From: Octopus vulgaris
Lineage: Eukaryota
NCBI GenBank assembly: GCA_951406725.2
Contig: OX597834.1
Location: 4,464,001-4,528,000, forward strand
Reading direction: 5' to 3'
Length of the DNA stretch: 64,000 bases
The position numbers and the translations under genes are program-made. The notes under the pieces are model-generated. The model did no database searches and was not told where the DNA came from. It worked only from the letters and a program-made list of their open reading frames with translations. Positions 3,329 through 47,156 of the stretch are shown here, piece by piece. The number at the start of each line of letters is the position of its first letter. The first letter of the stretch is position 1.

Positions 3329-3425
<97 letters not shown>

Positions 3426-3427
<2 letters not shown>

Positions 3428-3638
3428 ACGGGAAGCTTTATGAAAATAGACAAAAGACGAAGGCAGGTGGGAAACAAACAAACTATTGTATTAGTATGGC
3501 GCTCAGGAAATATGAATAAAACAAGTCTTTAACGTTTCGAGCCTACGCTCTTCAACAGAAAGATACACAGAGAGAAAAAAAAACACAGAAAGAAGGAGAG
3601 AAAAAAATGCCTGCAGTAACTAACGAATCAACATGGCG

Positions 3639-3641
<3 letters not shown>
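3426..3641 (-). mobile_element. About 215-bp hammerhead-bearing element inserted in (TA)n
   Basis: Near-identical in reverse orientation to 29850-30062; (TA)n on both sides. Confidence 0.75.
3526..3563 (-). ncRNA. Minimal type I hammerhead-like motif, A6U variant
   Basis: Minus strand reads TCTTT-CTGTTGA-A-GAGC GTAG GCTC-GAAA-CGT-T-AAAGA. Confidence 0.6.
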
Positions 3642-3706
<65 letters not shown>

Positions 3707-8471: not shown

Positions 8472-9074
8472 CACACACACACACACATATATATATGTGC
8501 TTGTGGATGTGTGGGTGTGCATGTGTGTGCGTGAGTGTGTGCATGCGTGAGTGTGTGTGTGTATATATGTGTGCGTATACACACACACATTCAATCAAAA
8601 ATGAAACCAGGAAAAAAACAACAGACGTGAAATAAACCGTACACAGTAGAAATATTAGGATTGACGCTCAAGGAAAATTTTAAATGGAGAAATAGGTGCG
8701 GAAATGACGTTTCGAGCGTGGCTCTTTGTCGGAAAGAGGAAAACGTCGAGAGAGGAGAGTTTAGACATAGCAACAATAACAACTCAATAAAAAAAATGCT
8801 TCAACACAAAGCGGTGGTCGAGTAGAGAGCATCAGCTTATAGCTTCCTGGAGGTGCACTCGCGATGCAGAAACATCTGCAAGCCTATGAAGTTGATTACG
8901 CAATCCCTTTTCTCTTGCCATTTATTAAAATTCATATTATGCTCTGTGTATAATATACATCCCTAACTATATACATGTAAGTATATATATACAAATACAC
9001 ACATACATGCATACATGCATACATGCATACATACAAACATACATACATACACGCATGCATGCACACACACACGC

Positions 9075-11242: not shown

Positions 11243-11273
<31 letters not shown>

Positions 11274-11753: not shown

Positions 11754-11871
<118 letters not shown>

Positions 11872-11899
11872 ATATATGTGTGTGTGTGTATATATACAA

Positions 11900-12105: not shown

Positions 12106-13492
12106 TATATATACACACATTGTTTTTCTCCTTTTTGTCGTTTTTCTTTTCTCTGTCTTTTCGCTATTTTTTAGGGTGTCTTACTACTTTTGGGCACAGA
12201 AAACCGGTGTCAGTAATATGGAGAAATAGTGGTATCATAAAAGAGACATCTGATGCATTTTTAAAGAACTAGACATTTGTATGAATATTGAGGTGGAGAG
12301 ATCTCTTCATGCAAAATGTGACGGGAGGGAGCCCTAAGGCCCACCATATCCATGGGTATGCTTGGGGCAATTGCTCCGTTTGTTCTCCTATAAATCCAGC
12401 TATGGTCTAACCAATTCGACTCAAAAGGTATGCAAAGCACCACGTTATGGTTACAAATCTGGGAGCCCATGAGTGCAAAGCGAGCTCCTTAGCCAGTTGG
12501 ATTTTCTTGCTTCTACAACGTGAATAGGTCAGACAGCAAAGCCTATAATATTTGTAGTTTACTACACAGTGTTCATACTTCATCAACTTAGAATAGAAAT
12601 AATGCTACGCAAAGAAATAGTTGTTATGAGATGTATATTTATTGAGACAGGAGTAATATAATCTTGGCTGTCGTGTGAAAATAACAGAAGCGTGATATGT
12701 TTTATTAGTTTTAAATATCAGTTTGCTATCGAGAGAAATAGTTTCTAGTAGCTAGTTATTCGGCAAACAATTAGAATGTCACCACTTGGCCAGTAAGTGT
12801 AACGATTTAAGGAGCTGTCTGTTTGTTAAGCAAGTTTCCCTAGTTAACTACCGGCTGGTCATTAAGCATAGCTCTATACCTTACACGTGTTTATGGCCTT
12901 TAAAAGCTTTCTAAATGGGAAATTATTTAACACGCAGGATTTTTACTTTGATGACTTTTGCTACAATCAACTCTAATGAAGCACTATTATTTCGCTATTA
13001 GTTTTACAATTTCCTAAGTTATTGATCTACTTCAGATAAATTGGATGAGTGTGAATGTGTGAATGTGTGAATGTGTGTGTGTGTGTGTGTGTTTGTGGTG
13101 TGTGCGTGCGCTTATGAATCTCCAGAGTAATACTCATAAGGGAAAAAGCAATCAGGATCGACTATTTCACAGATGATAAATAACGCTTTCTTCTTCTTCT
13201 TTTAGATTCATTATCTAATTACTCTTTGTGAATATGGGGCTCTTGTAATTAGTAAGTACGGAACAAGTCAAATTGCCTAACCCATCGTTCAACGAATTAC
13301 TCACGCAAAAATCACTTAATTTCAGCACAAAAACAAAGGAAAAACAAACCAAGGTAGGCTATACCCACTGCGTTGCCAATGTGTTGCCAACAGTGATTTT
13401 TCTACCCGGAGGAAGCTAGCTACAGCAAAGTACTCTGGTTCTTTGAGAACGAAATCTTTAGTTATATACGCAGTGAAATGATGAGATCTAAA

Positions 13493-14823
13493 CGAGGTGG
13501 GACCCAAAAGAAACCCGAATTTTGGAATTTGCTATTTTATTCACTTAATTTTTTACATGGTTACACTTTTATCGCCTTCAAAGTATTCTCCATTCGAAGC
13601 AATGCATCGGTCCAGACGCGTTTTCCATTGTTCGAAGCCGTGCTGGAACTCTTGCAAAGTGATACCTTTTAACTCCTCCGTCGCTTGTTTTCCTCGCCTC
13701 TTCCACATCTGCAATTTTCGTATCACCAGCTTTCGTCACCAGTGATGACCTTCGAAAAAAGGTCTGGATCATCTTCCAACTGTTCTTTCAGTTTACCACA
13801 CGCATTCAATCGTGACTGCTTTTGATCTTCCGTCAGTAAGCGACGAACAAATTTTACTGCAACTCTTTTCATTCGCAATTCCTCGTTCAAAATTCGTTGG
13901 CAGAAGTTCCAGGACATACCAGTCATATCAACAAGTTCATCAATTGTTCAGTGACGGTCCTCCAAGATTACTCTTTTACTCTTTTACTCTTTTACTTGTT
14001 TCAGTGATTTGACTGCGGCCATGCTGGAGCACCGCCTTTAATCGAGCAACTCGACCCCGGCACTTATTCTTTGTAAGCCCAGTACTTATTCTATCGGTCT
14101 GTTATGCCGAACCGCTAAGTGACGGGGACATAAACACACCAGCATCGGTTGTCAAACAATGCTAGGGGGACAAACACGGAAACACAAACATACACACGCA
14201 TATACATATATATATACATATATACGACGGGCTTCTTTCAGTTTCCGTCTACCAAATCCACTCACAAGGCTTTGGTCGGCCCGAGGCCATAGTAGAAGAC
14301 ACTTGCCCAAGGTGCCACGCAGTGGGACTGAACCTGGAACCATGTGGTTGGTAAACAGGCTACTTACCACACAGCCACTCCTGCGCCTATTAGTTCATGA
14401 ATTTTCATAATGTTTTCATTCGTTCGGGAGGTCGACGGTCATCCTGGACAAGGTTGGTCTTCAAGCGACAACTGACCATTCCTAAAGTGTGGGAACCACC
14501 CGCAAACTTGCGTTTGCTCATGGCAGTCGTCCTTGTAAGCTTTTTGAAGCGTGACAGCTGTTTCGGTTGTCGTTTCTCCCGGTAGAAAACGGAATTTCAC
14601 GGAAGTACGCTGTTCCTTTGTTTTCATCCACCGCAAAAATCGACGAACAGAGGAGAAGCACCGCAAAACAAAGACGCCACCCACAGTATGGCCTCAATAG
14701 ATAATGCCGGTCGGTATACTGATGCCGGAGGGTCGCATCAAGTGGCTTCTAGCGGTGGAAGTGCGAACTACAACGGGCTTGTCCCACAAAAAACGTTTCC
14801 GGTTACTTTTGGGTACCCCCTCG
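13493..14823 (-). mobile_element. Internally deleted mariner transposon with both TIRs, interrupted by a SINE
   Basis: TIRs cgaggtgggacccaaaagaaacccgaa / reverse complement of ttccggttacttttgggtacccctcg, followed by TA; peptides EQRTSVKF..LQKAY..WF..FRNG..LED.P..GRP and KFVRRLLTEDQK..VITGDESW. Confidence 0.9.
13969..14387 (-). mobile_element. SINE family B, full length, inserted in the mariner ORF
   Basis: Reverse complement of 4759-5168; short atta duplication at the junctions. Confidence 0.9.
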
Positions 14824-15139
14824 TATACTAATAGCTAAGCATTAGGATATGCATATTTGCAAACAATTTATAAAATGGTACTGGACAATGAAGGAGCAAA
14901 TGTCCCATCGCCGTGACTCGAACCTTGTATCAATTCCTTGCCAGGTGACATTACCAAGTCCCGTCTTCAGTTTTTAAATTAGCAATGACACACGATTGCT
15001 TAATCTGCTAAAAATAGCAGCCACATCTTAAAGAATGAAAGACATTAAGCAATGAAGTCTTTGTCAGTCCCAGCTGTAATTTCAAGAATAACAACACAAC
15101 ATAAACAGCCGTTGTAAATAATATCGATATTTGTTCTAA

Positions 15140-15272
15140 AACAATTGCAGCCTGGAAGCCATTTAAGAAACACACAAAAACCGTTAGATTCACTTCAACA
15201 TTTAAATTTAATTTGCCAAAATGTTTTCCTCGCTTTGAGACACCGACCTGTTCACTGACAAAATTCCGTGCT
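15140..15272 (-). mobile_element. Single arm of the G3-C8 hammerhead family (motif 15212-15262)
   Basis: Minus strand TTTGTCA-GTGAACA-G-GTCG..CGAG-GAAA-ACATTT-TGGCAAA plus the shared downstream sequence. Confidence 0.7.
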
Positions 15273-15989
15273 GTTCTAAAATGATTTAAGATTTTATTCC
15301 CTGAAATGAAATATTCTTGGTAGATATTCAAACAGTCGTTAGAGCTATTTGTGTTTTACTTAGCTTCGATGGAGTCAGAAGCATGCCTGGTCTCATAGCT
15401 TATATTGATACAGGAGATTGAGATTAGCCAGTTGGATTTATGTGTTGGACCACAATTAATGGAAGCAATAAGATAAAACCGCTTAATATGATATGTAGGG
15501 GAAGTCCATGTTAGCCATTCAACAGAGGGGTTAGTTTTTATTTATATGTCGAGTAGATATTCAGGTATCACGACGTGTCTTCGATTATCTTCGATTAAAT
15601 ATACAGCTGTGAGAATAGCTACAAGGAGGATGTAACACAACTCGACCCCAAACACTGAATTTTGGCGCTCAGTTTGACTGTATTTATAGGCTGTGTTTAC
15701 AGAAAATTGTAGCTGGGCCACCGAACTACCACGTGAACATCAACCGTTCAGTGGATAAAATCTCGATTGCGCACATTTTCTAATTATGACTGAATTGCAG
15801 GTTGAATTTCGTATGTGACAAAACGCGGGATCGAATCCAGTGTTATAATATATTGTGTCCCATTCGACACTAGTTCACTCTCATTTTGTTGATTGTGTAA
15901 CCATTGGGATCTCGAATATACATTCCAGTTATATGTAGGGGTTTCAATTCCAAATTTAAATTGGACGACGTATATGCAGCATTTCTTTG

Positions 15990-16258
15990 AAGTATACTCC
16001 TCCAGTACTCTTCTGACCTCGTCAACAGAATTCATATTTTTTTCGTCGAAATGATTTTGAAGACTGCAGAATAAATGATAACCAGATGAAGCAATGTCCG
16101 GCGATTATGGTGGGTGGGGCATCGTTTCCCATTCCAACTGCTCCAGCCTTTGGAATGTCATCCTTGCTGTATGTGGCCGAGCATTATCCTGATGGAAGAA
16201 CACCTTTCGCCTTGAAACCAAAGATGGTCATCTTTCTTCTAGCGCTGATTTGAACGAC
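15990..16258 (-). mobile_element. Mariner transposase C-terminal fragment
   Basis: Minus-strand FHQDNARPHTA and a decayed HPPYSPDIA..YHLF region. Confidence 0.8.
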
Positions 16259-16530
16259 TAGTTGAAAGACTAGTAATCGACTTACCCCCTCACCCCCAAA
16301 TTTCAGGCCTTGTGCCAATGGTAGAAAGCATTAATATTTTTTAGTTTTTCTATTTTAAATTAACGTAAAGTATACTAGCCATCTCAATATGGCTAGCCAC
16401 TAGGGGTGGGTGTTACTGTAGTTTTTAGCCCCTGGAGATCATCGTCTCCAGCTGGCTTTAGGCACATTTTTCTGTGCCCTTATGGTATTTGCAAAGGGAG
16501 GTCATCCCTCTCTCGTAAACCTAAGTGATA

Positions 16531-16575
16531 CGCACGGACTGCAGTTTCTAGGTATTTGCCTGTCTTCGGCGTACG
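16531..16575 (-). ncRNA. Type I hammerhead-like motif, U4C variant, palindromic stem III
   Basis: Minus strand CGTACG-CCGAAGA-CAGG CAAATA CCTA-GAAA-CTGCAGT-C-CGTGCG; GUC triplet. Confidence 0.65.
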
Positions 16576-17809
16576 GCAATCACCGATTTACGATGAAGGG
16601 AGACCTGTTTGCAAATACTTATTGTTTTTCTAGTAATTTATTTTAAATTATTCTTATGTTTTATTGAGTTGTATTCGAGAATCATTTCTGATATCTCTTA
16701 TTGCATGTTTGATTTTATATGTTATGACGAGGCCACTGGGATTAGACAGTTTTTCATCTTAGTTTGAGGTCATTTTTGCATTTGTGCTTTGCGGGATTAA
16801 GATTTTGATATTATTTCTATTATGATAATCTGATGATGAAATGCTTTAATTTTATGAAGGTACTTTTTGATAGATGTAACCATCGTAGAAATACTGGAGT
16901 TTTGTCATCTTTACGTTCTACATTTGCTTTTTTGTTCTTTTATATATTTTCTTTGTAAAGTATTTGGTTTTATACATCTTAAATCTTGATCTTATAAACT
17001 CGATAACTGATAAAACGCTGTTAGTTTCTACATCAGGGTTCTCCGTTATTTTGGTATTTCACATTTGAGCAACAGTTTCATTCCAATATTTTTAAAAACT
17101 TCAAAGCAGGTCTTAGTATTCAGTGTTGGGTTAATTACCAGGAACCATCATTACCATCTACCTTCAGTTAGTGCTATTGTTGCCATTGTTCCTGTCTTTG
17201 TTATCACTATTTTTGGTTATTTCAATTGTATTTTTTCCAGCTCAGTTTTATGCAAAACTTTGCAACTGGCTGTTATTTTGTGTCTGAAGGGAAAGTGAAA
17301 CCGGAAGTAAAGCATACCTAAGTACTGTTCCGAATGCATGTTTGAACTTCTGTCGGTCACTAAATAAATTCATAGTAGTTAAGCTAGTTTTGTAAATACA
17401 CCTCTTAAAAATATCAAAGTTGATCACCTCGCTTTCTACAGTTTCTCAATATACAACTGTTTATCATTACAGCCACAATGTATTCGGCATCCTTTCAAAT
17501 AGAATATTAAACTGAAGGTGACTCACATGCATACAAGTGAAATCTATAATGTTTTGATTATATTAGCGTACATAAACCTGCTTAGTTTGCAGATAATTAT
17601 GTAGCACAAGTGTATTCTTACACGGTTTGATTTATGAGACGTGCTGCTATGTGTAATGTATAGGTACTTAATGCAAGATATTAGTATGCAATTATACCGA
17701 ATTCTGTGTCTTAAACGTTCCATAAAAGTGGTTATTTTATTGATTTAAATAGTAAAAATAGTTATGTGCTACCGTAGCATGGTGCGGTAACAGTTATATC
17801 TGACATCAC

Positions 17810-18312
<503 letters not shown>

Positions 18313-19324
18313 TCAAAGGTTCGAACTTAGACGTAAAATTAAATTTGGATTTTATTTATTGTATTTCATTAAAACCTATTTTTATGATTTTTTTTTATGG
18401 TACTTATTTCATTTTCACTATTTTCGTTTCTTTTTAACCTTTTTTTTCTTCGTACATATAATTTTAAAACGAATAAATTTAATTCGCTTCGTTGAAGCGA
18501 GTAATAATAGTCTAAAAAGCTTCTAGGTTTTTCTTTTTTTAGGATTAAGTAAAGGGCTACCTGCATTTGGCAAGATATATGTGTGCAGCATGTAAGGTTT
18601 CATCTGTTTTTATTTGATTGCGTATGTTGCAGAATTTGGTATCTATCTTGTGTGTGTGGTTGGTTTCTGAATATTACATGCGTACGTATGGGCGAGAACG
18701 TTGCTGTATGAGATTGTGTTTAAGTAAATGTGTGTCTATGTATGTATATAAGTATTTACGTGGACGTATCAATGATTGTTCGATTTAATGGGGCTATCGA
18801 TTTGTATACATCAGTAATGATGTAAAAGTGCACGTATGCTTTAATATATGTGTTAGAATTTGGCATGTGTGTGTACCTGTTAGTTTGTGCGTTTGAACAT
18901 ATCCGTTAACGTGTTTTTGTGTCATAATTCTCCATGCATAACTGTTTGTTATAGAGTGGGTTTTTTTTTCTACATATATTTAATACTTTATAAATTTGAA
19001 CGAGACTCTGTATGCCTTCTCCTAAACTAGTTTCAGAAAGCAGTGTTCATGTGTCTATCAAGGAAATGGTATTCTTTTCATCAAGAAACTCGGTAGAGAT
19101 TTTGCAGAAAAGAATTCAGCGTATACAAGCAAAATACCATGGTTTACCAGGAATAATGACTCAAGAAATATACGAAAGAATTACAAAGAAATTTATTTAA
19201 AATATTACAAAGTTTGTTGAAAAAAACTTGGTCAAAATTCAGTCTAACCACCCAACGTACATTGCCTTTTTTAAAAGATCTTATGCATATCATTACAGGT
19301 CCAGTCAGCCTGTAATGATATGCA

Positions 19325-19800
19325 TAAGATCTGATCATCAAATCTAAGTAGAGATTTCAAACTTAAAATCTTCAAAGCCACAGTCGAAACAATTCTACTA
19401 TATGGCTCAGAAACCTGGACGTTATCAAAGAAGCTTGAGAGGCGGTTGGATGGAACTTACACTCGCCTCCTTATGAGAGCTCAAAATCTCTCGTGGAAGC
19501 GTCATCCAACCAAAGTACAAATATATGGGAAACTACCACCTGTATCATCTCTTGTGAAAGGTAGAAGAGTCCAGTTTGCTGGACATTGTTGTAGAGCTGA
19601 AAACGAAGTAATTTCTACTCTTCTCCTCTGGAAGCCATCTGCTCGTGATACCAGAGGGCGCACACTCTCCTACCCTGATGTAATCTCCAGGAATACAGGC
19701 ATCCAGCAACAGGACCTCCGTAATGCTATGATGGACCGTGAGGTCTGGCGTAACATAGTAAATTCCATTGTTTCGACCACGATCGAACAACGAATGATGA
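19325..19800 (+). mobile_element. RTE-clade LINE, 3' fragment
   Basis: KIFKATVETILLYGSETWTL..RLDGTYTRLL..FAGHC..LLLWKP..M.DREVWR; short atgatga tail. Confidence 0.9.
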
Positions 19801-20678
19801 ATGAATTTTTTAAAAACGGCTTTCCATTTTTCTATGTTTTAAATATTGCGAAATATCATTCAGCAAAATTCATAATTTTTTTCATAAACTCACTTCGCTT
19901 CATTGTTGCTATCACTTTTCAGAAATGACCCTTATCTTAATCCTACTTAGAAACCTGACCCTAAACCCAGTAATAGATTCTTGTGAAACAGTTACTGAAG
20001 TTACGCTTGTTCTGAGAATTCCTTTGCCTTCTCACATTCTGACAAAGTACTGACTACGAAATATACTGGAGCCAAGTTAACAGGAAGTTTTTGCGACGGC
20101 GACTGAACGAAATCTCAAATAGGAGATTGATTAAAAATCAAGACAAAACAAAAACAGTAACGAACATTTGTACCGGTCAAATTATGGAATCACATTTTAG
20201 ACAATTTTCCTTTTTAAAAGGTTCTTGGAATTCACTGGAATATTAATAGCTGTGATGGGGGCCAATTAAAAAAAAAATGAATTCCGAATTTAGAAATTTC
20301 CCGATAAACAAATGGCCATGCTCCTCCATACCATGTTAGGAATCCCGGCTCGGGTCGATAAAATAAAGGTTAAATAGTAGTGTTGATTTAATCGACTTCT
20401 TTTCCTAAATTTCTGGCGTTGTGTATTTATCAGACACTACCTGAACCCTGGACCCTACAGATCTATTGTCACTGCAAGTTTTACAAATATTTTCTGCTGA
20501 TTTTGCTTTAAAAGGTTATGTTCAAGTCTTTTTCTCGATGACTTTATTGAAAAACTGAATCGCATCAAAAACGAGCGGTTTTCCTGCTACGAAACAAAGC
20601 CTTAAGTGTGCGCTTTTATAAAGGAAAACTTCACATTATTTTGTTTTAAATAAGGTCGAAAGAAAACCTGTTTCTTTA

Positions 20679-21070
20679 TTGCCCAGTGGTTATGGCAGCG
20701 GACTTGCGATCGGAGGATCGTGGTTTCGATTCCCAGACTGGGCGTTGTGTGTGTTTATTGAGCGAAAACACCAAAAGCTCCACGAGGCTCTGGCAGGGGG
20801 TGGTGTCGACCCCTGGTGTACTCTTTCGTCCCAACTTTCTCTCACTCTTTCTTCGTCTTTCTTGTCCCCGACTTCCTACGCAACCGTTGAGCCTGGATGC
20901 ACATTCATCCATCCGTCGATGCTCTTGGTGTCGGGGGTTGACCTGCTTTCTCTTCTGCGGGCCTTACGAATAGCAAAGGACCACGTTTCGGACTTCTCCC
21001 ACTACAGAGGCACGATCTTGCGAGCTCTGGGACGAAGACCACTTCGCTCAACAGCAACAGCAACAACACA
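20679..21070 (+). mobile_element. SINE with family A head and an alternative 3' half, (CAA)n tail
   Basis: Matches family A up to ctttctctcactctt, then unrelated sequence. Confidence 0.8.
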
Positions 21071-21281
21071 ATGCATCTACCGTGGTAGTATCGTTAGTAG
21101 ACAGCCTACGAAGTTGGGGCGGAGTTTCAGTTGATGATATCGTAGCGTAGGAGCATAAACTCGGCTTAGTCTGACCCGATTATCTCGCGATTTCGGAAGC
21201 AGAAAGAACCCTCGCTTGCAAATGCAGTTATAGAAAGACCAGAAACACACACACACACACACACGCATGCACACACACGCA

Positions 21282-21322
<41 letters not shown>

Positions 21323-21334
21323 ACATACACGCAT

Positions 21335-21399
<65 letters not shown>

Positions 21400-21833
21400 C
21401 AGAATACGTGGCGTGAGGAAAAGAGAATATGGAACGGAAGTGACCCTCTGTCTCATTGAAACGGATGTACAGAGGACGGAGAAATAGACACGCGCTGCCG
21501 ATGAGGACGGTTGAGCAAAAGAACATTTGGTGGTTCAGCCAGGAAAAAAAAATCAAAATGATCTTTCAAGGGCAAAGAAAACCCATCAGCCACAAAAATT
21601 GCTTCGATCGGGAAGAGTGTTATGATTTTGAGTAAGGTACTTCGTCTTACGCATTTCTTCTGTAGGCACAGTCGGAATGTATGTATGTATGTATGTATGT
21701 ATGTATGTATGTATGTATGTATGTATGTATGTATGTATGTATGTATGTATGTATGTATGTATGTATGTATGTATGTATGTATGTATGTATGGATATATGC
21801 ATGTATGTGTGTGTATGTAAATAATATATATAT

Positions 21834-22175
21834 AATTGCAGCGTGGAAGGTGTTTGTAAGCCATTTAAGAAACACACAAAAGCCGTTCGATTCACTTCAA
21901 CATTTAAGTTTAAATTTGTCAAAATATTTTCGTCGCTAAAATCCGCGACCTGTTCACTGACAAAAATCCATGCTGCATCAGAGAAAGTAACAGTGAACAG
22001 GTCGCGGTCTTATAGCGACGAAAATATTTTGACAAATTTAAACTTAAATGTTGAAGTGAATCGAACGGCTTTTGTGTGTTTCTTAAATGGCTTACAAACA
22101 CCTTCCACGCTGCAATTGTTTTCGTTTCAGCACACGATCTCAGATCAAATCACTTGCTATGCAAGTACATCTCCG

Positions 22176-22177
<2 letters not shown>
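21834..22177 (+). mobile_element. Fold-back PLE-like insert between TA-rich microsatellites
   Basis: Near-perfect inverted arms 21834-21959 / 21991-22117 plus 60-bp tail; homologous to 2326-2649. Confidence 0.8.
21915..21964 (-). ncRNA. Best-preserved G3-C8 type I hammerhead-like motif
   Basis: Minus strand TTTGTCA-GTGAACA-G-GTCGC GGATTTTA GCGAC-GAA-AATATT-T-TGACAAA: 7-bp stem I, 5-bp stem II, palindromic stem III. Confidence 0.7.
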
Positions 22178-22245
<68 letters not shown>

Positions 22246-22248
<3 letters not shown>

Positions 22249-22556
22249 CATGATCACCGTGACTGACCAGGCTATCAGATGTTGCTACACATCGTTGGTC
22301 ACAATGCGTTTCGCATTGTTTTAGCCTTCAAATGACGCCACCCCACTGGCTAAGCGAGCAAGCCAACAGAAGAAAGAGTGAAAGAAAGTTGTGGTGAAAG
22401 AGTACAGCAGGGATCACCACCACCCCCTGCCGGAGCCTCATGGAGCTTTTTAGGTGTTTTCGCTCAATAAACACTCACAACGTCCAGTCTGAGAATCGAA
22501 ACTGCAATCCTACAACGGCGAGCCCGCTGCCCTAACCACTGGGCCATTGCACCTCC
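22246..22556 (-). mobile_element. SINE with family A head and a third type of 3' half
   Basis: 22375-22556 matches family A; 22246-22375 does not. Confidence 0.8.
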
Positions 22557-22820
22557 ACACACACACACACACTCACACTCACATAAAGTAACAAACTGAG
22601 GAAAAGAAATCCTTGAAAGGGGTGTGTTAAACATAGAATTCACTAGTACGTGAGTTGGATGCCATATAGATATTGGTATAATTCAATTAAAAGATAAACT
22701 GAATATAGAGATACACTATTAACAATCCAAAAAAATTATTTATATTACAATATTACATTAAATACTATCAATATGATATTACATTATATTATATAACATA
22801 AATAATTGTAAAAACCATAA

Positions 22821-22910
22821 AAGGTCAACAAATTGTTTCGACTTATATACATATTTTTTCTGATATACATAATCACAGTTCCATTATATATAAAGTCACT
22901 TCAGGGTCTT
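22821..22910 (-). ncRNA. Decayed hammerhead-like motif with long stem II
   Basis: Minus strand AAGACC-CTGAAGT-GACTT...AAGTC-GAAA-CAATTTGT-T-GACCTT. Confidence 0.45.
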
Positions 22911-23096
22911 GGCTTTAGAAAAAGGCGAAATTCCGTGTGAAAGGACGGCTGGATTGTAAAACTTAATTCAAATGTTTATGTGTTATGAGCGTAACCATTC
23001 ACTCATGCATCAATTACAATTAAAAAAAACAAACCAAAAACACTTTAACGGACGAAACAATCCAGTAAATACAAACATACAAATCTCATTATTTGG

Positions 23097-25868: not shown

Positions 25869-25973
25869 TTTAGGTGTTTTCGCTCAATAAACACTTACAA
25901 CACCCGTCTGGGAATCGAAACCGCGATCCTACAACTGCGAGTCCGCTGCCCTAACCATTGGGCCATTGCACCT

Positions 25974-26020
<47 letters not shown>

Positions 26021-26770: not shown

Positions 26771-26799
26771 TAAATTTAAATTAATAAAAAATTGTAAAA

Positions 26800-27135
26800 A
26801 ATTGGAAGAGTCAAGAAAACGGATAGGCTTGTTTCACATCAGCTGAACAAGATTCAAAAGAACAGACGTCTTGAAGTGTGCTCCTTATTGCTTTCTCGAC
26901 TGGAAAAAGACCATTTTTGCATCAAATCATTACTTGTGATGAGAAATGGATGCTCCTTGACAACAACAGAACAGAACAGTGATTATATGCAGTCACCTAA
27001 AGACTACTCGAACTCACCATTGCACACTAAAACGTCAGTGGCCACTGTATGGTGGTCTGCGAACGAAGTTGTTCATTATTCATTTTTGCATCAAGGGAAA
27101 ATAGTAACAGTAACATCGTATTACCAGGAAACCTA
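26800..27135 (+). mobile_element. Mariner transposase fragment
   Basis: HQLNKIQKNRRLEVCSLLL, IITCDEKW, ATVWWS..VVHYSFL..G..VT..YY. Confidence 0.8.
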
Positions 27136-29746: not shown

Positions 29747-29820
<74 letters not shown>

Positions 29821-29849
29821 ATATATATATATATATATATAGATATATA

Positions 29850-30062
29850 GATCGCCATGTTGATTCGCTACCCTCTGCACGCATTTTTTCTCTCCTTGTT
29901 TCTTTCTGTGTTTCTTTTCTGTGTATCTTTCTGTTGAAGAGCGTAGGCTCGAAACGTAAAAGACTTGTTTTATTTATATTCCTGAGCGCCATACTAATAC
30001 AATTGTTTTTTTGTACTCCACCTGCCTCCGTCTTTTGTTTATTTTCATAAAGCTTCCCGTTA
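29850..30062 (+). mobile_element. About 215-bp hammerhead-bearing element in (TA)n (motif 29926-29963)
   Basis: TCTTT-CTGTTGA-A-GAGC GTAG GCTC-GAAA-CGT-A-AAAGA; copy of 3426-3641. Confidence 0.75.
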
Positions 30063-30159
30063 TATATATATATACATACATACATACATACATACATACA
30101 TACATACAACATACATACATACATATATATATATATCTTAATGTATATATATACAAGCA

Positions 30160-30281: not shown

Positions 30282-30343
<62 letters not shown>

Positions 30344-30713
30344 TGCAGCGTGGCAATGTGGTACGAAGCTTGCTTCCCAACCACATGGTTCCAGGTTCAG
30401 TCCCACTACGTGGCACCTTGGGCAAGTGTCTTCTATAAACTCGGGCTGACCAAAGCTTTCTGAATGGATTTGATAGAAGGAAACGGAAAGAAGCCCGTCG
30501 TATATATATATATTTTTGTGTGTGTGTCTTTGTCCCCCCACCATCGCTTGACAGCCGATATTGGTGTACTTACGTCCCTGTGGCCTAGCGGTTCGGCAAA
30601 GTGACCGATAGAAAAAGTACTAGGTTTAAGAAGAATAAGTTCCGGGGTCGATTTGCTCGACTAAAGGCGGTGCTCCACCCTGGCCTCAGCCAAATGACTG
30701 AAACAAGTAAAAG
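30160..30713 (+). mobile_element. SINE family B: a 5' half (30160-30285) followed by a full copy (30342-30713)
   Basis: Two heads separated by (TA)n. Confidence 0.8.
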
Positions 30714-31202
30714 ATGCACACACACACACATACATTATTTACTAACGGATATTGGAAAGTTCCTGGCTTTAACGGTGTCGCGAAAGGCCCGGCTGGAGTC
30801 TCAAACTTCCGATTTATTTTACTGGGTTTCGAAAAACTGAAGGACCACTGCAATAAATGTGTGAATCTGAAAGGGGAATATGGTCAATAAAATGATAAGG
30901 AACTGATCCTGCGGCATTTTCTTTAACCCAAACCCAGGAACTTTACAGCAATCTCTCGTGTATATATTAGGCCGCTGACATTCGTTGACGCTGCATGGAA
31001 GACGACGTAACCAAAGAACAAAAAAAAAGAAAGAAATGCACTCAATACCAGCCACCTCCAAAAGGTTGGGGTGGCGGGCGGCGCCACGTTGGAAAATGGT
31101 TCCTCCTGATGACGCCCTTAGCTACTGGATCCTTTAAAGGAGTTATTGAGTTAGCGAACCACAAAACGTGGTTGGAATTCCTATATATATATATATATAT
31201 AT

Positions 31203-31471
31203 AGCAATAATAATTCTCTAAACGAGGTATATACAGTAATTGCTCCATAACATAAGGGACGTTAGCCATCCGAATATGGCTAGGGACAGGGCAGGGCGGT
31301 GGGGGTGTTACTGATGCATTTAGCCCCAGGCGATCATCAACGTCACCAGGAGGGCGGCGTCAGCCCTCCTGGTGACGTTGATGATCGCCTGGGGCTAAAT
31401 GCATCAGTACCACCCCCACCGCCCTGCTCTGTCCCTAGCCATATTCGGATGGCTAACGTCCCTTATGTTAT
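31203..31471. mobile_element. GC-rich near-perfect fold-back (31247-31471) between (TA)n tracts
   Basis: About 110-bp arms, 7-nt loop ggcgtca; arm resembles 16375-16452, which lies downstream of the 16531-16575 motif. Confidence 0.7.
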
Positions 31472-37519: not shown

Positions 37520-39550
37520 AATAACTTCACGGTGTGTCTTACAAATCTTGTGGTATTTGTTAGATTTTAGAAAATACTTACCTAAGGCAACAATTACTTA
37601 GTAATCCCGGATGATATTCGTGATCCGAAGATTGGATTAGGCCACAAAACATTAAATATTTTATACTTTTTGTTCGGTCTGTGACTACTAATATAAATTG
37701 TGGAAGGGTCATTGCCCAAGGAGTTACGTTCTACCTAATATTTAGACTAATACTGTTTTCACTTCTAATTTTATTTAATGTGTCAATTTTCACTCTTAAT
37801 TAGTCTGACATGACCACCTCCCTCTATTGCGTGCTTACAATTTTATCTATTAAGGTAAGGCTTAGTTCTATTACTATTGTGGCTCTGTAGATTAATTAGA
37901 TTATTATTAAGCAAATATTTCCTTTTCTCTGTATAAGCAACCCTGGCCAATGCTGCACTGCAATAGTGTCCATGTGTGTTATTTAACTTCTTTCCTTAGC
38001 CAAAAGTTTGGGTATTCGATTAGATATGTTTCTTACAAGTCCGTTCATAATAGAGGGTGGGTGATTAGATTTTACATTTATATATCTCAGGTTTTCGTTT
38101 GGCTTATGGTGTAGTTCGAATGATCTTGCATCCAAATTAAATGTTAGATCGAGAAAATTTACTTCACGGTAATTATTTTCTGTATTAACGGATTGTCCAA
38201 AATTTTTGAAGAATTTAAATAGTCGTTTCTTGTATCTCTCCATTTCTACCTTATTAAACCTATAAGTTATGAAGAATGTGTCGACCCTATACAGGTTATT
38301 CCCCATCCGTGAAAACCAGGACCAGATCTGGAATAGGATATATATTCTGACAAGCTCAGTGACTTTCGCTGAGTCACTAGATCCCATTGTAATATCGAAA
38401 GAGTCTATTCTATCTGATCTCGTCCCTAGTTTATTATCAAAATCTATCAGAATACCATGTGCAGCTAGTATAATATCTAACTCTGACCTAGAAAAATCAG
38501 AATTGCGCATGGCAAAAATTAAAGCCTTGTTCAGAAGAACCAGACTAACAGTAGAATAATAATTTGATATGTCGAGTTGTGTAAATTTGCTACTTTTAAT
38601 CCAATTCAGTCTTTTGAACCATCCAACAGACCATAGAGAGTGTTTAATCTTCGATCTAAAATTTGGAAGTATTCTGTCAATAATACTTTTACTAATCCTA
38701 CCAATATCCAATTTAGAGGGGCACACTTGTCTATCTGTAGGGTTATTATCAAAGTTAGTATTATACAAAGTTTAGTTAATTCTAGCTTTTTTTGAGGGGG
38801 CATATGGCTCAGTTCTATCTTCTATTCCGTGTTGTGTAAATATTTCAAAGCTCTTATTTACACCAGTTAATGCATCTCTAGTTCTTTCATGATTAGTAAA
38901 AAATAGTGTTATTTTAACAATGTATGACTTACCAGTTTTATCCGCCGGTACTAATATGCCTAAGGCGTCGAGCTGGCAGAATCGTTAGCACGCCAGGAGA
39001 AATGCTTAGCGGTATTTCGTCTGTCGCTGCGTTCTGAGTTCAAATTCCGCTGAGGTCGACTTTGCCTTTCATCCTTTCGGGGTCGATTAAATAAGTACCA
39101 GTTACGCACTGAGGTTGATATAATCAACTTAATCCGTTTGTCTGTCCTTGTTTGTCCTGTCTGTGTTTAGCCCCTTGTGGGTAGGAAAGAAATAGGTATT
39201 TCGTCTGCCGCTACGTTCTGAGTTCAAATTCCGTGGAGGTCGACTTTGCCTTTCATCCTTTCGGGGTCGATTAAATAAGTTCCAATCGACTTAACCCATT
39301 TGTCTGTCCTTGTTTGTCCCCTCTGTGTTTAGCTCCTTGTGGGTAGTAAAGAAATAGGTACTAATATGCCTGATGCTCTTTGGAATTCCTCCAGTGGTTT
39401 TCTCAATTTTTACTGGCGTTGTTGTCTTCTTTTTGTTGGTAGTTGATGTCTTCTTGGATTTTATAATTTTTATGATTTTATACAATTCCTCCTTAAAAGT
39501 TCTAGGCGTTGATATGTTGGTAGGATTTTCAGGTAGTTAAATTGTCTCTT
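37520..39550 (-). mobile_element. Decayed Penelope-like retroelement RT, interrupted by a SINE
   Basis: LVPADKTG, DIGRISKSIID, QLDISNYYS, FDITMGSSDSAKVTELV, LYRVD (decayed YRDD), VNFLDLTFNL, KPNENLRYINVKSNHPPSI; outer limits approximate. Confidence 0.85.
38962..39356 (+). mobile_element. SINE family C dimer
   Basis: 15-bp TSD ggtactaatatgcct (38947-38961 / 39357-39371) flanks the whole dimer. Confidence 0.92.
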
Positions 39551-39777: not shown

Positions 39778-39800
39778 TTGAATAAAGAATGTCGCTCGCT

Positions 39801-40133
39801 GGCGTGGCTGTCTGGTAAGAAGTTTGCTTCCCAACCACATGGCTCCGGGTTAGGATCCGCTACATGTGGAGCCTTCGGCTAGTATTTTCTACTATAGCCT
39901 CGGATCGACTAGAGACTTGTGAGTGGAAATGGTAGGCGGAAACTGAAGGACGCTCATCGAGTGTATATATACTTATACATATATATGTATGTGTGTGTGT
40001 ATGTTTGTGTGTGTGTGTCTTTGTTTCCGTATCTGTCCCTCACCATCGCTTCACAACCGGTGTTGGATTTATTTACGTCCCTGTAAATTAGCAGTTCGGC
40101 AAAAGAGAGGCCGATAAGATAAGTACAAGACTT
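39801..40133 (+). mobile_element. SINE family B, diverged, 3'-truncated
   Basis: Head and internal blocks match the family. Confidence 0.75.
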
Positions 40134-41030: not shown

Positions 41031-41836
41031 CCAGTTAACTAAGTTAACATAGAACAGAGAATGTAAAATAGATCATAACTCAAGAGTATACCCAGTATAT
41101 ATCTTATAGACAATCAGCAATAACTCACATGATAGACATGTAATGAAACTTGGATAAAATAACATGAGAGAATATGAGACCAATCGTTGTCATAAAACGA
41201 AGTTGTGAATGCAAAGTTCAAAAGCATAGTTGTAAATACTAGGAAAGATAAAGAAATCCTAAGATAAACATGATTGATACTAATTAACAGTTAACATATG
41301 AACAGTCAAGTAGATAATAAAATTTAGAATTGTTGCATAATCAAAACTAGCTGAATAATTGATTAAGTAATTAGTTGAATGATGGGCAAAGCGAATGTAG
41401 CACTATTGAGTCGTAGCAATATGGAATCGTTGGTCGTAGATTCTATTAAAAATGTAAATGTCATCCATATCATTATTATTTGCAAGTGAATTTGAGATAA
41501 AGCTCAACACACTTGCTACAATATGGATGTTTGGTTTGCAAATAATTAGCAGATGATATGAGTTAATGAGTATAAGTTAATTACATTACATTAATCAATA
41601 GCAAAAAAAGAAAACGTTACGCATAGGTGAGGATAGGGGGATGAGACTTGTAAGTCGTATTTTAATGTTGTCCTAGCATATTGCTGACATTATTGCTACT
41701 TTTGTGCAGATTTATAGAGAAATTCGTACATGCCTATGACATATGGATACAAATCAATCTAAAGTATATAGATATTATTCGATACCATCGCGTATGTTAT
41801 GATTATTTTTATAGTTTTCAATATTAAGCATATTAA

Positions 41837-42040
41837 AGGCGGCGAAATTGCAGAATCGTTACCCTGCCGGGTAAAATGCTTAGCGGCATTTTGTTCGTCT
41901 TTACGTTCTGAGTTCAAATTCCACCTTTGCTTTTCATCCTTTTGCGATCGATAAAATAAATACCAGTTGAACAGTGGGGTCAATGTAATCGACTTATTCC
42001 CTCCACCGAACTTACTGGTCTTGTGGCCAAATTCGAATCC
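41837..42040 (+). mobile_element. SINE family C
   Basis: aaggcggcga..tgcagaatcgtta...gttctgagttcaaattcc. Confidence 0.8.
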
Positions 42041-42537
42041 AATATTAATTATATTTATTACCTTTATGCCTGCATTAAATTACAAGTTCACTCATTGTCT
42101 TTAATAAATTAAGATCTCAAGTGTTTCATGTGTACATGAGTGATAGACTTTTCTATTTCAGTGTACTTTGGCTGAATTTGATGTAGACCATACCAGAATA
42201 TAATCTATTATTTTTCGTTTTAAAAGAAATACATATAATCCACAAGAGGGGTCGAATTCTTAAGTTTAGTGTTTGAGTATGAGTATCGGTACGTATGATA
42301 ACGTTCATTAAAATACTGTTGCAATCCCTATGCAATATTTACATGCATTATGTATTTTTAATGTACACTTATAAAAGGTGGTTTATTCGCTGACATTTTA
42401 CTTCCAAGGGGCAATTATTTGCAGTCCTACAGTTACAGCTATAATTTATTATTGTTTATTGTTTATGAAACTGTTATGTGGTTCTAAGACTTGAATAGGT
42501 TTTAGACTTGTAGGAGAATTATTATTTACATTTTCTA

Positions 42538-42752
42538 AGGCGGCCAGCTGGCAGAGTCGTTAGCACACCGGGCAAAATGCTTAGCGGCATTTCATTCGTC
42601 TTCTCGTTCTGAGTTCAAATTCCGCCGATATCGACTTTGCCTTTCATCCTTTTTGGGACCGATAAAATAAGTACCTGTTGAGTACTCGGGCTCGATGTTA
42701 TCGACTTATCCCCTCTCCTGAACTTGCTGGCTTTGTGACAAAATTCGAAATC
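42538..42752 (+). mobile_element. SINE family C
   Basis: Head plus ctttgcctttcatcctt..gataaaataagtacc block. Confidence 0.85.
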
Positions 42753-43289
42753 AATATTAGTGTTACTTCTATTGTAATTAGAGAGCGAGTAATTATTACA
42801 ATGGTGGTTTAAATGTTCTATTATCGATGATTCATTCACGATAGTTATCTCAGCCCTGCTATATTACATTTTGTTTCGAATCTAAGATCGTCATATTACA
42901 TTTATTTAATGTTTTAGCAACAAGCTGAGCTTGATAAATTACTTTACAATAGTTACTGTCCCTGTTAAGTTTATGACTATTAAAGGTCGCTATACTAGCA
43001 AAGAAAGTTGTGGTAGTAGACTTCAGATAGATTTAAAGTAGACGAGCTAAAATGATAGGGGTATTTATATTGAGAAGCAAAGTTGTTTTCGAGAATTCTG
43101 TACAACTTACTTTTCGGTAAGTATGTTTTGATTTGTACGATGAATAGAGGATTATATCAGACAATGTTCTGCTTTCTGTTACTTCTATCATAAGAAATTA
43201 GTAAACCAGAGAAATCTCTCTCACACACACAAAACTCCCCCTTCTCCCTCTTCTTTCACGTATACATTTTCACTCGTATACGAGTGAAA

Positions 43290-44146: not shown

Positions 44147-44721
44147 TTTACATATATTCTTCTTAATTTCTCTTCCAAGATATCAGACATTACTTTCTAA
44201 TAGTTTTCGTAGTTGTATTTCTTTTGGTTTCTTTTTCATAAAATCTTTACAGAATTCAGTTTTTTCCCCAATAGATTTTGCGATCCCAGTTCTCCTTGAA
44301 GATAAAAATTTGTTTGTGCAGTGTACAATTTTATCTTTTCTTCTTCCTTAGAGTCGCAGACATCCGACAGAGCAACCATCTATCAACTGAATACTTCAAA
44401 TAGTGGAGGAAATTTCATACTGTGTGACTGTATTCCTAGTTGGAAAGAAAAATAATTTATCTTCAGCTGATATATTTTCTTCTCATTATTCTGGACATCT
44501 TCCTTACGACATTGTATTTATTTTACAGATTGAATTATTGACATTACTTTTCGTCGACGCTGCGCATCACTAAATTCCCAGGATTCTACTGTTTATTCTA
44601 TCCGCTAATATTCAACTCATGTTTTCCATGGTCAATGAACAAGTTTGTAAAACCACTCGCGAAAAGTCGTCTTGTGTCCTACTGTAGTTTTGATGATTGT
44701 TTCGTTAGCTTGCAATAAAGA

Positions 44722-44930
44722 TTTCAAATTTTGGTACAGGACCAACAATTTTGGGGAAAGGGGTAAGTCGATTACATCAACCCCCAATGCTCAACTGGTC
44801 CTTATTTTATCAATTTTGAAAGGATGAAAAGCAAGTCGACCTCGACGGCATTTCAACTCTGTACGTAAAGACGGACGAAATGCCGCTAAGCATTTTGTCC
44901 GGCATGCTAAAGATTCTTCCGGCTCACCGT
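44722..44930 (-). mobile_element. SINE family C, diverged
   Basis: Reverse-complement match to family. Confidence 0.75.
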
Positions 44931-44977
44931 TTTGTTACCTTGTAGCAATTAGTTCAGCACCTGCTTTGGGTATATCC

Positions 44978-45627
44978 GATTTCTTTACTACCCACAAGGG
45001 GCTAAACACAGAGGGGACGAACAAGGACAGACAAACGGATTAAGTCGATTATATCGACCCCAGTGCGTAACTGGTACTTATTTAATCGACCCCGAAAGGA
45101 TGAAAAGGCAAAGTCGACCTCGGCGGAATTTGAACTCAGAACGTAACAGCAGACGAAATACCGCTAAGCATTTCACCCGGTGCGCTAACGCTTCTGCCAC
45201 TACTTAATACCTATTTCTTTACTACTCACAAGGGGCTAAACACAGAGGGGACGAACAAGGACAGACAAACGGATTAAGTCGATTATATCGACCCCAGTGC
45301 ATAACTGGTACTTATTTAATCGACCCGGAAAGGATGATAAAACAAAGTCGACCTCGGCGGAATTTGAACTCAGAACGTAGCGGCAGACGAAATACCTATT
45401 TCTTTACTACCCACAAGGGGCTAAACACAGAGAGGACGAACAAGGACAGACAAACGGATTAAGTCGATTATATCGACCCCAGTGCGTAACTGGTACTTAT
45501 TTAATCGATCCCGGAAGGATGATAAGCAAAGTCGACCTCGGCGGAATTTGAACTCAGAACGTAGTGGCAGACGAAATACCGCTAATAATTTCGCTCGGCG
45601 TGCTAACGATTCTGCCAGCTCGCCGCC
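44978..45627 (-). mobile_element. SINE family C trimer
   Basis: Three tandem bodies; 13-bp TSD tttgggtatatcc (44965-44977 / 45628-45640) flanks the whole array. Confidence 0.92.
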
Positions 45628-46093
45628 TTTGGGTATATCCTGGAAGAAGCAAGGGTCTAACATGATTTATAATCGATGTGTGTAATTCTATACAGAGATA
45701 TACTGAAACTGTATGTCGTTAGAGATTTATATTAGGTTAAACAATAAACTTAATTTTACATGTCTCATTCCGTTTAAGCTTTTGACTATTACTTATTACA
45801 TACTAATCTGCTAGATAGTGTGTAGTTTTTAACTTTAACCACAATGGAATTTAGAGGTGATGATTAACTTTAAAATCACGAGCTGATCGTTGTGATATTT
45901 ATAATTATTATCGGAATTGAGTGGCACTATAAATCCTCTTAAAAATCGGATAAATGTATTTTTTAAGTACTTAAGCTTATCATAGTTTCGGTGTATGTTA
46001 TAACTACTATAGTTTAGTTCACAGCATTTAAAAAAAACCCATAATTACCATAATTAACAAATGTCTTATTCTTATTATCCAAATGTATATCTT

Positions 46094-46505: not shown

Positions 46506-47156
46506 TATATTTTAACTAAAGTGAACGTCTGAAGCATACGTATGTTCTAATTTCACTTGCCTCTTGTTAATGTCTTTTGCCTCGTTGTGTCGTTGTATGT
46601 GCTTTAAAATGTTTTTTCCTATTTTCGTACATACCCTATATAGTTACCGACTCCCACCCAGCCACGTTTATTCCAGCTCACCCGCTTATATGAATTTAAG
46701 CAAATGTCCAACCCACCTGGTTATTCCAACCTCGCCTATTATTTGGGTAGATAAGAAGATAAGAATAATTTGAAAAATTACTGACTTTCATATATTTAGT
46801 GAATGAACTAGAATATGTAAAAAAATAGACAAATGAAAGAAAAGGTTAAGAAAGAATAATGCGAAAAGGAATAATACTTAAAATAGAATAAAATGGAAGA
46901 ATAACTTAATGGCTATCATTATCTAACTTCCTCAACAGGAAGTCATAAAACTGGAAAAAGATCTTTAAAAACAGGAAAAGAAATTATTGAATTTAGAATA
47001 TCCCACATAAAATCTGACACGGAAAGATTATATCTACGGGACTTTTGTCACTGTTATAAAATATTCACTGAAGAGCTAAAAAATACCCGGTATTCAAAAT
47101 CCTTAAAAGCATGAAGAAAACAAAACAATAAAGTCCCAAAGAATTTTTTGTTTTTT

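What the first reader, a model, noticed from the sequence alone, without database searches (positions are those of the whole stretch)
29850..30062. 215-bp element with identical ends in two (TA)n tracts and a 38-nt minimal hammerhead-like motif (CUGUUGA)
Seen: this element and 3426-3641 share both ends. The motif UCUUU-CUGUUGA-A-GAGC GUAG GCUC-GAA-ACGU-H-AAAGA differs between copies only at the H17 position (A versus U, both permitted). Stem III is the 4-nt palindrome ACGU, which cannot close intramolecularly. Established: minimal PLE-associated hammerheads can cleave as dimers through palindromic stem III. Inference: a discrete non-autonomous unit or solo pLTR. A decayed relative lies at about 8595-8760.
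Basis: partly seen in the sequence, partly recalled or inferred. Interest (0 to 1): 0.72.

Follow-up and report, generated by a model that had tools for sequence, protein, structure and literature searches.

The report
Penelope-type element with altered hammerhead core
This is a real, very abundant 210-base jumping element of an animal genome that carries the small self-cutting-RNA motif known from Penelope-like retrotransposons, but with one normally fixed core letter changed across the whole family, so it may spread without cutting itself.

Summary
Observation confirmed. 29850-30060 (+) and 3428-3641 (-) are 88% identical, share both ends, sit in (TA)n and carry the same 38-nt minimal type I hammerhead-like motif; 8612-8737 (-) is a true, decayed relative with A6. 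Public contigs (4 runs laid, 3 coded organisms; 3,000-22,954 contigs each) show a very high-copy family in which U6 is the consensus: no A6 at 4% or more in any run, and N7 is the only core position that varies. So the copies are not dead mutants of an A6 family. The same architecture with A6 lies about 100 nt after a GIY-YIG endonuclease in 16 of 83 metagenome loci, which ties it to Penelope-like elements (PLEs). No tandem array or end-to-start joint was seen. Best reading: a dispersed, non-autonomous pLTR-derived unit moved in trans by a (TA)n-targeting PLE protein, whose A6U motif cleaves weakly or not at all and is kept as an RNA fold. Cleavage, the partner element and the host (octopus by recall only) are untested. 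The scan found PLE minimal hammerheads before in other genomes, but no note holds A6U or CUGUUGA.

The parts
29850..30060 (+). Element copy A, 211 nt, non-coding, no terminal inverted repeats
29926..29963 (+). Minimal type I hammerhead-like motif of copy A: stem I 29926-29930 with 29959-29963; core C3-A9 29931-29937; unpaired A 29938; stem II with 4-nt loop 29939-29950; G12-A14 29951-29953; palindromic stem III 29954-29957; H17 29958
29934..29934 (+). U6, in place of the canonical A6; family consensus
   Evidence: no T>A row at 4% or more in 4 of 4 runs
29935..29935 (+). N7, the only position of 29931-29958 that varies at 4% or more (C in 15-24% of summed depth)
29818..29849 (.). (TA)n tract 5' of copy A (one interruption)
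30061..30074 (.). (TA)n tract 3' of copy A
3428..3641 (-). Element copy B, 214 nt, same ends as A
3526..3563 (-). Hammerhead-like motif of copy B (U at H17)
3412..3427 (.). (TA)n tract 3' of copy B
3642..3698 (.). (TA)n tract 5' of copy B
8612..8737 (-). Copy C, decayed older relative; motif remnant 8706-8732 with A6, changed U4 and G8, 3-nt loop II, no stem I; ends not defined

Best explanation
The 211-214 nt unit is a dispersed, high-copy, non-autonomous derivative of the 3' UTR/pseudo-LTR of a Penelope-like element. SHOWN: fixed ends in two copies, (TA)n flanks, no ORF, no TIR, no A box; a PLE-type minimal hammerhead architecture; U6 as family consensus; the motif is the part shared most widely between subfamilies. 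INFERRED: its RNA is bound in trans by the RT/GIY-YIG protein of an autonomous (TA)n-targeting PLE (Neptune-like, going by the motif type), which nicks a TA microsatellite and starts reverse transcription at a fixed internal site about 100 nt 3' of the motif, giving the common 3' end; a master copy or internal start site gives the common 5' end of this subfamily. INFERRED: A6U leaves little or no Mg2+ self-cleavage, and the motif is kept as an RNA fold that the PLE protein recognises, cleavage being dispensable for insertion.
For: Family size and U6 consensus: 22,954, 21,183, 6,060 and 3,000 contigs laid in runs X1, X2, X6, X9; no T>A change at 4% or more anywhere on the stretch. Copy A has only 2 sites where over 90% of depth shows another letter (30009, 30028), so a U6 master made copies fairly recently. 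Summed depth over the motif is 3.4-6.6 times that of the 3' part, and loose ends pile up at both edges of stem I (29927, 29966) in 4 of 4 runs: other subfamilies share the motif and differ in the flanks. One loose-end consensus shows U6 with G7. PLE link: the same core, stem II and stem III with A6 in 76 of 76 complete motifs among 83 metagenome hits, and a GIY-YIG piece ending 83-137 nt upstream on the same strand in 16 of 83 loci, the query locus L042 included; here C3 lies 81 nt from the 5' end. The motif fits the metazoan PLE consensus except at position 6 (PMC4209133 supplement). In the anole PLE, RT starts internally 85-92 nt 3' of the hammerhead cut site (here 102 nt), targets are AT-rich, and hammerhead catalytic mutants do not affect insertion in vitro (PMC11167929). 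In a complete single and double mutant scan of a type III hammerhead, changes in the CUGA region had low activity and no rescue except the C3/G8 swap (PMC9901934). (TA)n preference is reported for Hydra, Naiad and microsatellite bias for Neptune PLEs (PMC8557442).
Against: No autonomous partner was found: no whole genome is held, and no ORF is attached to any of the 3 window copies. The PLE link rests on a 26-nt pattern in another host; the flanks of those loci do not align with the element and 0 of 76 have (TA)5 within 150 nt. Constraint on the core is not significant by counting variable sites: 1 of 28 in the core against 19 of 185 elsewhere, Fisher p 0.48; A against B: 1 of 38 against 24 of 176, Fisher p 0.09, binomial p 0.027. 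All other catalytic positions are invariant, which fits retained catalysis as well. No cleavage or binding was measured.
Confidence: 0.5

Rival explanations
1. Same element, but the A6U motif is a working ribozyme: it cleaves as a dimer through the palindromic stem III, helped by the PLE protein or by Mn2+, and cleavage is what selection keeps.
For: C3, U4, G5, G8, A9, G12-A14, A15.1, U16.1 and stem II show no variant at 4% or more in 4 of 4 runs while the free position N7 varies. A natural A6C hammerhead is slow in Mg2+ but cleaves well in Mn2+ (PMC7151607; PMC3088659). The anole PLE hammerhead cleaves only with its protein (PMC11167929). The active dimer can be drawn with 5-bp stems I and a 4-bp stem III (-15.9 kcal/mol).
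Against: Low activity of position-6 mutants. U6U7 lets U4-U7 pair with A14-G16.2 in the monomer (pair probabilities 0.8-0.98 against 0.1 or less with A6), and the predicted best dimer is an inactive duplex at -28.0 kcal/mol; but the A6 motif of L039 also misfolds in prediction, so this does not separate the cases. Copies are dispersed monomers, so dimers would have to form in trans.
Confidence: 0.22
2. Not a separate non-autonomous family: these are 5'-truncated 3' ends of an autonomous PLE that itself carries U6, with a preferred truncation point.
For: 5' end depth is only 10-39% of 3' depth; hundreds of contigs leave the alignment upstream of 29916-29928 with other sequence. Most PLE insertions are 5'-truncated (bioRxiv 10.64898/2026.07.22.740005).
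Against: 2 of 2 intact window copies share the 5' end to the base although they are 12% diverged and belong to different 5' variants; no GIY-YIG coding remnant in the first 80 nt.
Confidence: 0.18
3. A non-LTR retrozyme: tandem arrays of the unit are transcribed, cut to monomers and circularised; the window copies are stray monomers.
For: Size fits (monomers of about 170-400 nt; families with many monomers exist; PMC7229834, bioRxiv 10.64898/2026.07.22.740005). In copy B the first 78 nt weakly resemble the last 77 nt (2 of 2000 shuffles), as a partial tandem of a 135-nt unit would.
Against: 0 of 3 window copies are in tandem; no end-to-start joint among the joints listed for 4 runs (contigs can drop rare forms). 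The partial-tandem signal is absent in copy A (449 and 670 of 2000 shuffles). Core is non-canonical.
Confidence: 0.05
4. A tRNA-type SINE, MITE or other short repeat whose likeness to a hammerhead is chance.
For: Stem II/GAAA overlaps a 9-mer one mismatch from a B box. Rfam hammerhead models gave no hit on the element.
Against: No A box within 1 mismatch on either strand, ends match at only 3 of 15 positions as inverted repeats. Near-identical 26-nt architecture downstream of GIY-YIG in other genomes. Copy C carries A6.
Confidence: 0.03

Closest known systems
Minimal hammerheads (min-HHR) in pseudo-LTRs of metazoan Penelope-like elements (Cervera and De la Pena 2014, PMC4209133)
   Same: Type I topology, U-rich 5' flank, short helix I, unpaired base after A9, G10.1-C11.1, palindromic helix III, AU-rich 3' flank, mostly single dispersed motifs at high copy.
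   Different: U6 instead of A6 as family consensus; the core variant described there is U3-A8. The published consensus is CUGANGAH, and the core strings quoted for such searches in PMC8557442 require cuganga, so these searches would miss this family.
A6 minimal hammerhead 3' of a GIY-YIG ORF in metagenome loci L042, L075, L069 and others (Neptune-like by the CX2-5CxxC linker before a C-terminal endonuclease)
   Same: Identical stem II arms, G12-A14 and stem III; similar distance from the start of the non-coding part.
   Different: A6, other loop II and stem I, unrelated flanks, not in (TA)n, another host (not determined).
PAc, Poseidon PLE of Anolis carolinensis (Frangieh et al. 2024, PMC11167929)
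   Same: Fixed 3' end about 90-100 nt past the hammerhead cut site; AT-rich targets.
   Different: PAc is autonomous with a cleavage-competent, protein-assisted hammerhead; this unit has no ORF and a non-canonical core.
Non-LTR retrozymes (Cervera and de la Pena 2020, PMC7229834; Li et al. 2026, bioRxiv 10.64898/2026.07.22.740005)
   Same: Short non-coding unit with one type I motif, probably pLTR-derived and moved by PLE proteins.
   Different: No tandem array seen; dispersed in (TA)n with fixed ends; core not canonical.
Natural A6C hammerhead of phage Bcep176 (PMC3088659, PMC7151607)
   Same: Natural change at core position 6.
   Different: C not U; a single phage motif rather than a multi-thousand-contig repeat family; activity measured there, not here.
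Hydra-1_Obim and octopus Naiads (Craig et al. 2021, PMC8557442 supplement)
   Same: (TA)n insertion preference; fixed termination site noted for Hydra-1_Obim.
   Different: The Hydra-1_Obim hammerhead has A6, a 7-bp stem II and a looped stem III; this element's motif strings were not found in that supplement (line breaks in FASTA can hide a match).

Membership tests
PLE minimal hammerhead (min-HHR) | Core C3 U4 G5 A6 N7 G8 A9 | tested here: not met
   U6 in both copies and in over 96% of laid depth in 4 of 4 runs; the other six positions fit
PLE minimal hammerhead (min-HHR) | Helix I of 3 or more pairs closing a type I motif, U-rich 5' flank | tested here: met
   5 bp, 29926-29930 with 29959-29963
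PLE minimal hammerhead (min-HHR) | Unpaired base after A9; helix II opening with G10.1-C11.1; G12 A13 A14 | tested here: met
   29938; 29939-29950; 29951-29953
PLE minimal hammerhead (min-HHR) | Short palindromic helix III with A15.1-U16.1, then H17 | tested here: met
   29954-29957, H17 29958
PLE minimal hammerhead (min-HHR) | Self-cleavage at H17 as a dimer | not testable with these tools
   Folding only; published position-6 mutants are slow
Penelope-like element (pLTR / 3' end) | Motif lies in the repeat flanking an RT + GIY-YIG ORF | tested here: inconclusive
   No ORF attached in the window; no genome held; same architecture follows GIY-YIG in 16 of 83 loci of another host
Penelope-like element (pLTR / 3' end) | Insertion into microsatellites or AT-rich targets, fixed 3' end | tested here: met
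   2 of 2 intact copies in (TA)n, which covers 3.6% of the window; identical 3' junction
Non-LTR retrozyme | Tandem array of two or more units, each with a complete hammerhead | tested here: not met
   0 of 3 window copies; no end-to-start joint listed in 4 runs; rare arrays not excluded
Non-LTR retrozyme | Unit-length linear and circular RNA | not testable with these tools
   Only contigs were available
tRNA-derived SINE | Pol III A box and B box | tested here: not met
   No A box within 1 mismatch; B-like 9-mer lies inside the hammerhead motif (box patterns recalled); no tRNA call there
MITE | Terminal inverted repeats | tested here: not met
   3 of 15 terminal positions match; no terminal inverted pair

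The most novel reading that the evidence does not exclude
A lineage-wide natural A6U hammerhead, fixed across several subfamilies and at least three organisms' contigs and still amplified, that selection keeps although textbook mutagenesis calls it crippled: either a ribozyme turned into a non-catalytic docking fold for a Penelope reverse transcriptase, or a ribozyme that works only with its protein or another metal. Searches that demand CUGANGA would have missed such families altogether.
Probability: 0.35. Interest if true: 0.7.

Novelty: new variant of a known kind. Interest (0 to 1): 0.46.

Why it matters
What hammerheads do in Penelope-like elements is open: they are nearly universal there, cleave poorly, and in one in vitro system are not needed for insertion. 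A successful family with a fixed change at a supposedly invariant core base, next to an older A6 relative in the same genome, is a natural experiment that separates catalysis from fold recognition. It also shows that descriptor searches with a strict core can miss very large families, and it gives an identity to a short repeat that would otherwise be filed as unknown or SINE. If the motif is simply dead baggage on a truncated PLE end, the finding is ordinary.

Tried and rejected
Rfam: no hammerhead model among the 150 of 194 matches shown for the window and none on the element alone; not taken as evidence against, because the motif is minimal and non-canonical. No whole genome held, so copy number, ends and partner could not be mapped. 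U6 pattern: 0 hits in viral contigs, 0 in genome contigs; in metagenomes the 4 of 83 hits without A6 all lack U16.1-H17 and are taken as chance. Expression: no RNA holder is on record; X9 is RNA by guess only, so it is not used as evidence of transcription. The PLE RT remnant at 38007-38843 (-) was considered as partner: no related motif was found near it, and a protein search gave 2 unnamed hits. A YY1-like 9-mer (motif recalled) at the 5' end: 3 matches in the window against 1.5 expected, 2 being the element itself; dropped. Folding z-scores of the motif are modest (-1.6, -2.2) and the 3' part has no stable fold. Folding energies do not separate U6 from A6, since an A6 motif also misfolds. 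Octopus repeat papers (PMC13282606, PMC8967140) hold no 'hammerhead' or 'ribozyme' in their main text and no library sequence in the supplement held. Earlier scan notes: none by sequence or in this genome.

Full report
Observation. The element is real. Copy A runs 29850-30060 (+) and copy B 3428-3641 (-). They differ at 25 of 214 aligned columns, begin and end at the same bases and lie in (TA)n on both sides; the 3' junction has the same TA phase and the 5' junction differs by one base. (TA)5 or longer covers 3.6% of the window. The 38-nt motif at 29926-29963 and 3526-3563 (-) differs only at H17. The core pattern has 2 matches in the window and none in 100 shuffles. The third copy (8612-8737, -) scores 64 against the motif-plus-3' part of A; the best unrelated tile scores 52 and 0 of 2000 shuffles reach 64. 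It carries A6, with changes at U4 and G8 and no stem I. A profile of the three copies found no fourth.

Anatomy. Stem I is 5 bp, followed by C3 U4 G5 U6 U7 G8 A9, one unpaired A, a 4-bp stem II with a 4-nt loop, G12 A13 A14, the palindrome A15.1-C-G-U16.1 and H17. This fits the consensus for metazoan PLE minimal hammerheads in the supplement of PMC4209133, including the U-rich 5' and AU-rich 3' flanks, in everything but position 6. The element has no long ORF, no terminal inverted repeat and no A box. Rfam gives no hammerhead hit on it.

Family. No whole genome is held. Of 24 runs listed, 22 hold part of the stretch, from 9 studies. I laid 4 of the 24 (X1 and X9 of organism A, X2 of B, X6 of D; one may be the window's own source) at 80% likeness, listing differences from 4%. 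22,954, 21,183, 6,060 and 3,000 contigs were laid: a very high-copy family, though contig depth gives no copy number. No T>A change is listed at any place in any run, so A6 is below 4% of laid depth everywhere. Within 29931-29958 the only listed variant is N7 (U to C in 15-24%), and one loose-end consensus in each of the 4 runs shows U6 with G7. H17 is A in the family; the U of copy B is rare. Copy A has only two sites where nearly all depth shows another letter (30009, 30028), so it is close to its master. Summed depth over the motif is 3.4-6.6 times that near the 3' end, and the 5' end has 10-39% of it. Loose ends with other sequence gather at both edges of stem I (29927: 306, 315, 222, 66 contigs; 29966: 305, 358, 272, 76): several subfamilies share the U6 motif and differ in the flanks. 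No joint from the 3' end back to the 5' end is listed.

Link to Penelope-like elements. A metagenome scan with positions 6, 7 and loop II left free gave 83 loci. 76 continue with U16.1 and H17, and all 76 have A6 (69 distinct contexts); the 4 hits without A6 lack that ending. In 16 of 83 loci, the query locus L042 included, a GIY-YIG piece ends 83-137 nt upstream on the same strand (Pfam GIY-YIG E 0.002 and 0.02, below the curated cut-off). The L042 protein shows a CX4CxxC linker before the endonuclease, as described for Neptune elements (PMC8557442). In the window C3 lies 81 nt from the 5' end, so the unit is about one 3' UTR/pLTR long. The flanks of those loci do not align with the element, none of the 76 has (TA)5 within 150 nt, and their host was not determined: this is architectural kinship, not the partner. 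The U6 pattern is absent from the viral and prokaryotic collections. A decayed PLE RT lies at 38007-38843 (-); by eye it resembles the Hydra clade proteins in the supplement of PMC8557442, and nothing ties it to the element.

How it most likely works. Shown: a dispersed, non-coding, TA-inserted unit with fixed ends and a family-wide U6. Inferred from PMC11167929: a PLE protein binds the RNA, nicks AT-rich DNA and starts reverse transcription at an internal site; there it lies 85-92 nt 3' of the hammerhead cut site, here the 3' end is 102 nt from H17. In that system hammerhead catalytic mutants inserted normally, and the ribozyme cleaved only with protein. Inferred from mutagenesis: in PMC9901934 all single and double changes in the CUGA region but the C3/G8 swap had low activity; the natural A6C variant has kobs under 0.1 per min (PMC3088659) and is rescued by Mn2+ (PMC7151607). 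No paper I saw measures A6U in a minimal dimeric motif. Folding shows that U6U7 allows an inhibitory pairing of U4-U7 with A14-G16.2, but an A6 motif from L039 also misfolds in prediction. I therefore favour a unit that spreads without efficient self-cleavage and keeps the motif as a recognition fold (0.5), over assisted catalysis (0.22), plain truncation of a U6 autonomous element (0.18), a tandem retrozyme (0.05) or chance likeness (0.03). Copy C suggests that A6 is ancestral in this lineage and U6 derived; that rests on one decayed copy.

Host. Microsatellite load and the SINE-like repeats look like an octopus genome; this is recall, not a tool result. If so, PLEs are reported as 6.83% of Octopus vulgaris (PMC13282606 supplement) and octopus Hydra and Naiad PLEs prefer (TA)n (PMC8557442 supplement); the Hydra-1_Obim hammerhead is a different motif.

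Novelty. Minimal hammerheads in PLE ends and pLTR-derived non-autonomous units are in print (PMC4209133; PMC8557442; bioRxiv 10.64898/2026.07.22.740005), and earlier scan notes report such motifs in other genomes. I found no report of a U6 family: searches (25 of 66 listed; no hammerhead paper with 'A6U'; 30 of 802 listed; none on hammerheads); every core in the hammerhead table of PMC8557442 has A6, as its descriptor demands. Lunse et al. 2017 on PLE hammerhead variants is not held (seen only as a reference in PMC6765202), one supplementary file of PMC4209133 could not be searched, bioRxiv supplements are closed, and repeat libraries such as Repbase or Dfam were not available; any of these may already hold the family or the variant. 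Because A6 is a defining feature and is not met, I file this as a new variant built like a PLE minimal hammerhead, not as a proven ribozyme.

What I saw of each paper. PMC4209133: parts 1-2 of 4 and a search of one supplementary file. PMC8557442: passages, supplement searches, supplement parts 2 and 52 of 59. PMC11167929: passages and the whole main-text section. bioRxiv 10.64898/2026.07.22.740005: parts 1-3 of 5. PMC3088659: passages and section 8. PMC7151607, PMC9901934, PMC7229834, PMC6765202, PMC8967140, PMC6962438, PMC11014351: passages. PMC13282606: passages and a supplement search.

Verdict. Real feature, known kind, with one unusual and testable property: a fixed non-canonical core in a large, fairly recently amplified family. 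Interest 0.46.

Noticed in passing
window 29850-29925 vs 29984-30060; 3428-3641 (-): The 5' 76-78 nt weakly resemble the 3' 77 nt, in register from the first base, as in a partial tandem of a 134-137 nt unit. Significant in copy B (2 of 2000 shuffles in two tests), not in copy A (449 and 670 of 2000); post hoc.
   Followed up: partly
window 38007-38843 (-): Decayed Penelope-like RT, 33% identical to P0001 (E 8e-35), resembling Hydra clade proteins by eye; no hammerhead found beside it.
   Followed up: partly
window 4756-5168, 13968-14390, 47154-47556, 30339-30716, 39797-40133 and others: A 400-bp SINE-like family with an internal microsatellite, many copies at 70-90% identity.
   Followed up: no
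window 4164-4538, 48831-49202, 62760-63101: A 340-375 bp repeat with copies 97-98.5% identical, so young; older copies at 20678-20862, 22365-22558, 25869-25977.
   Followed up: no
window 31247-31471, 59238-59462, 59741-60239, 21720-22244, 48405-48572, 2387-2649: Long inverted-repeat elements (76-96% self-complementary), MITE-like or fold-back.
   Followed up: no
window 38959-39364, 41835-42047, 42521-42763, 44711-45632, 54092-54352, 62444-62672, 63843-64000: A second abundant short family of about 230 bp, partly in nested or tandem form.
   Followed up: no
window 26798-27133 (+), 14442-14693 (-), 52003-52524 (+): Mariner transposase fragments (Transposase_1 E 5e-9, HTH_48 E 7e-6) and a LINE zf-RVT fragment (E 9e-6); the single ARAGORN tRNA-Leu call at 26957-27037 overlaps the mariner fragment and is probably false. 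No host gene domain among 150 of 226 open frames scanned.
   Followed up: partly
window 22596 (+) and about 26031 (+): A CUGAGGA...GAAA string inside a two-copy repeat passed my loose motif scan with a 3-bp stem; it lacks the stem III ending and looks like chance.
   Followed up: no
L001-L083: A high-copy A6 minimal hammerhead family in host-derived metagenome contigs, several loci with inverted GIY-YIG pieces as in PLE head-to-head insertions.
   Followed up: partly
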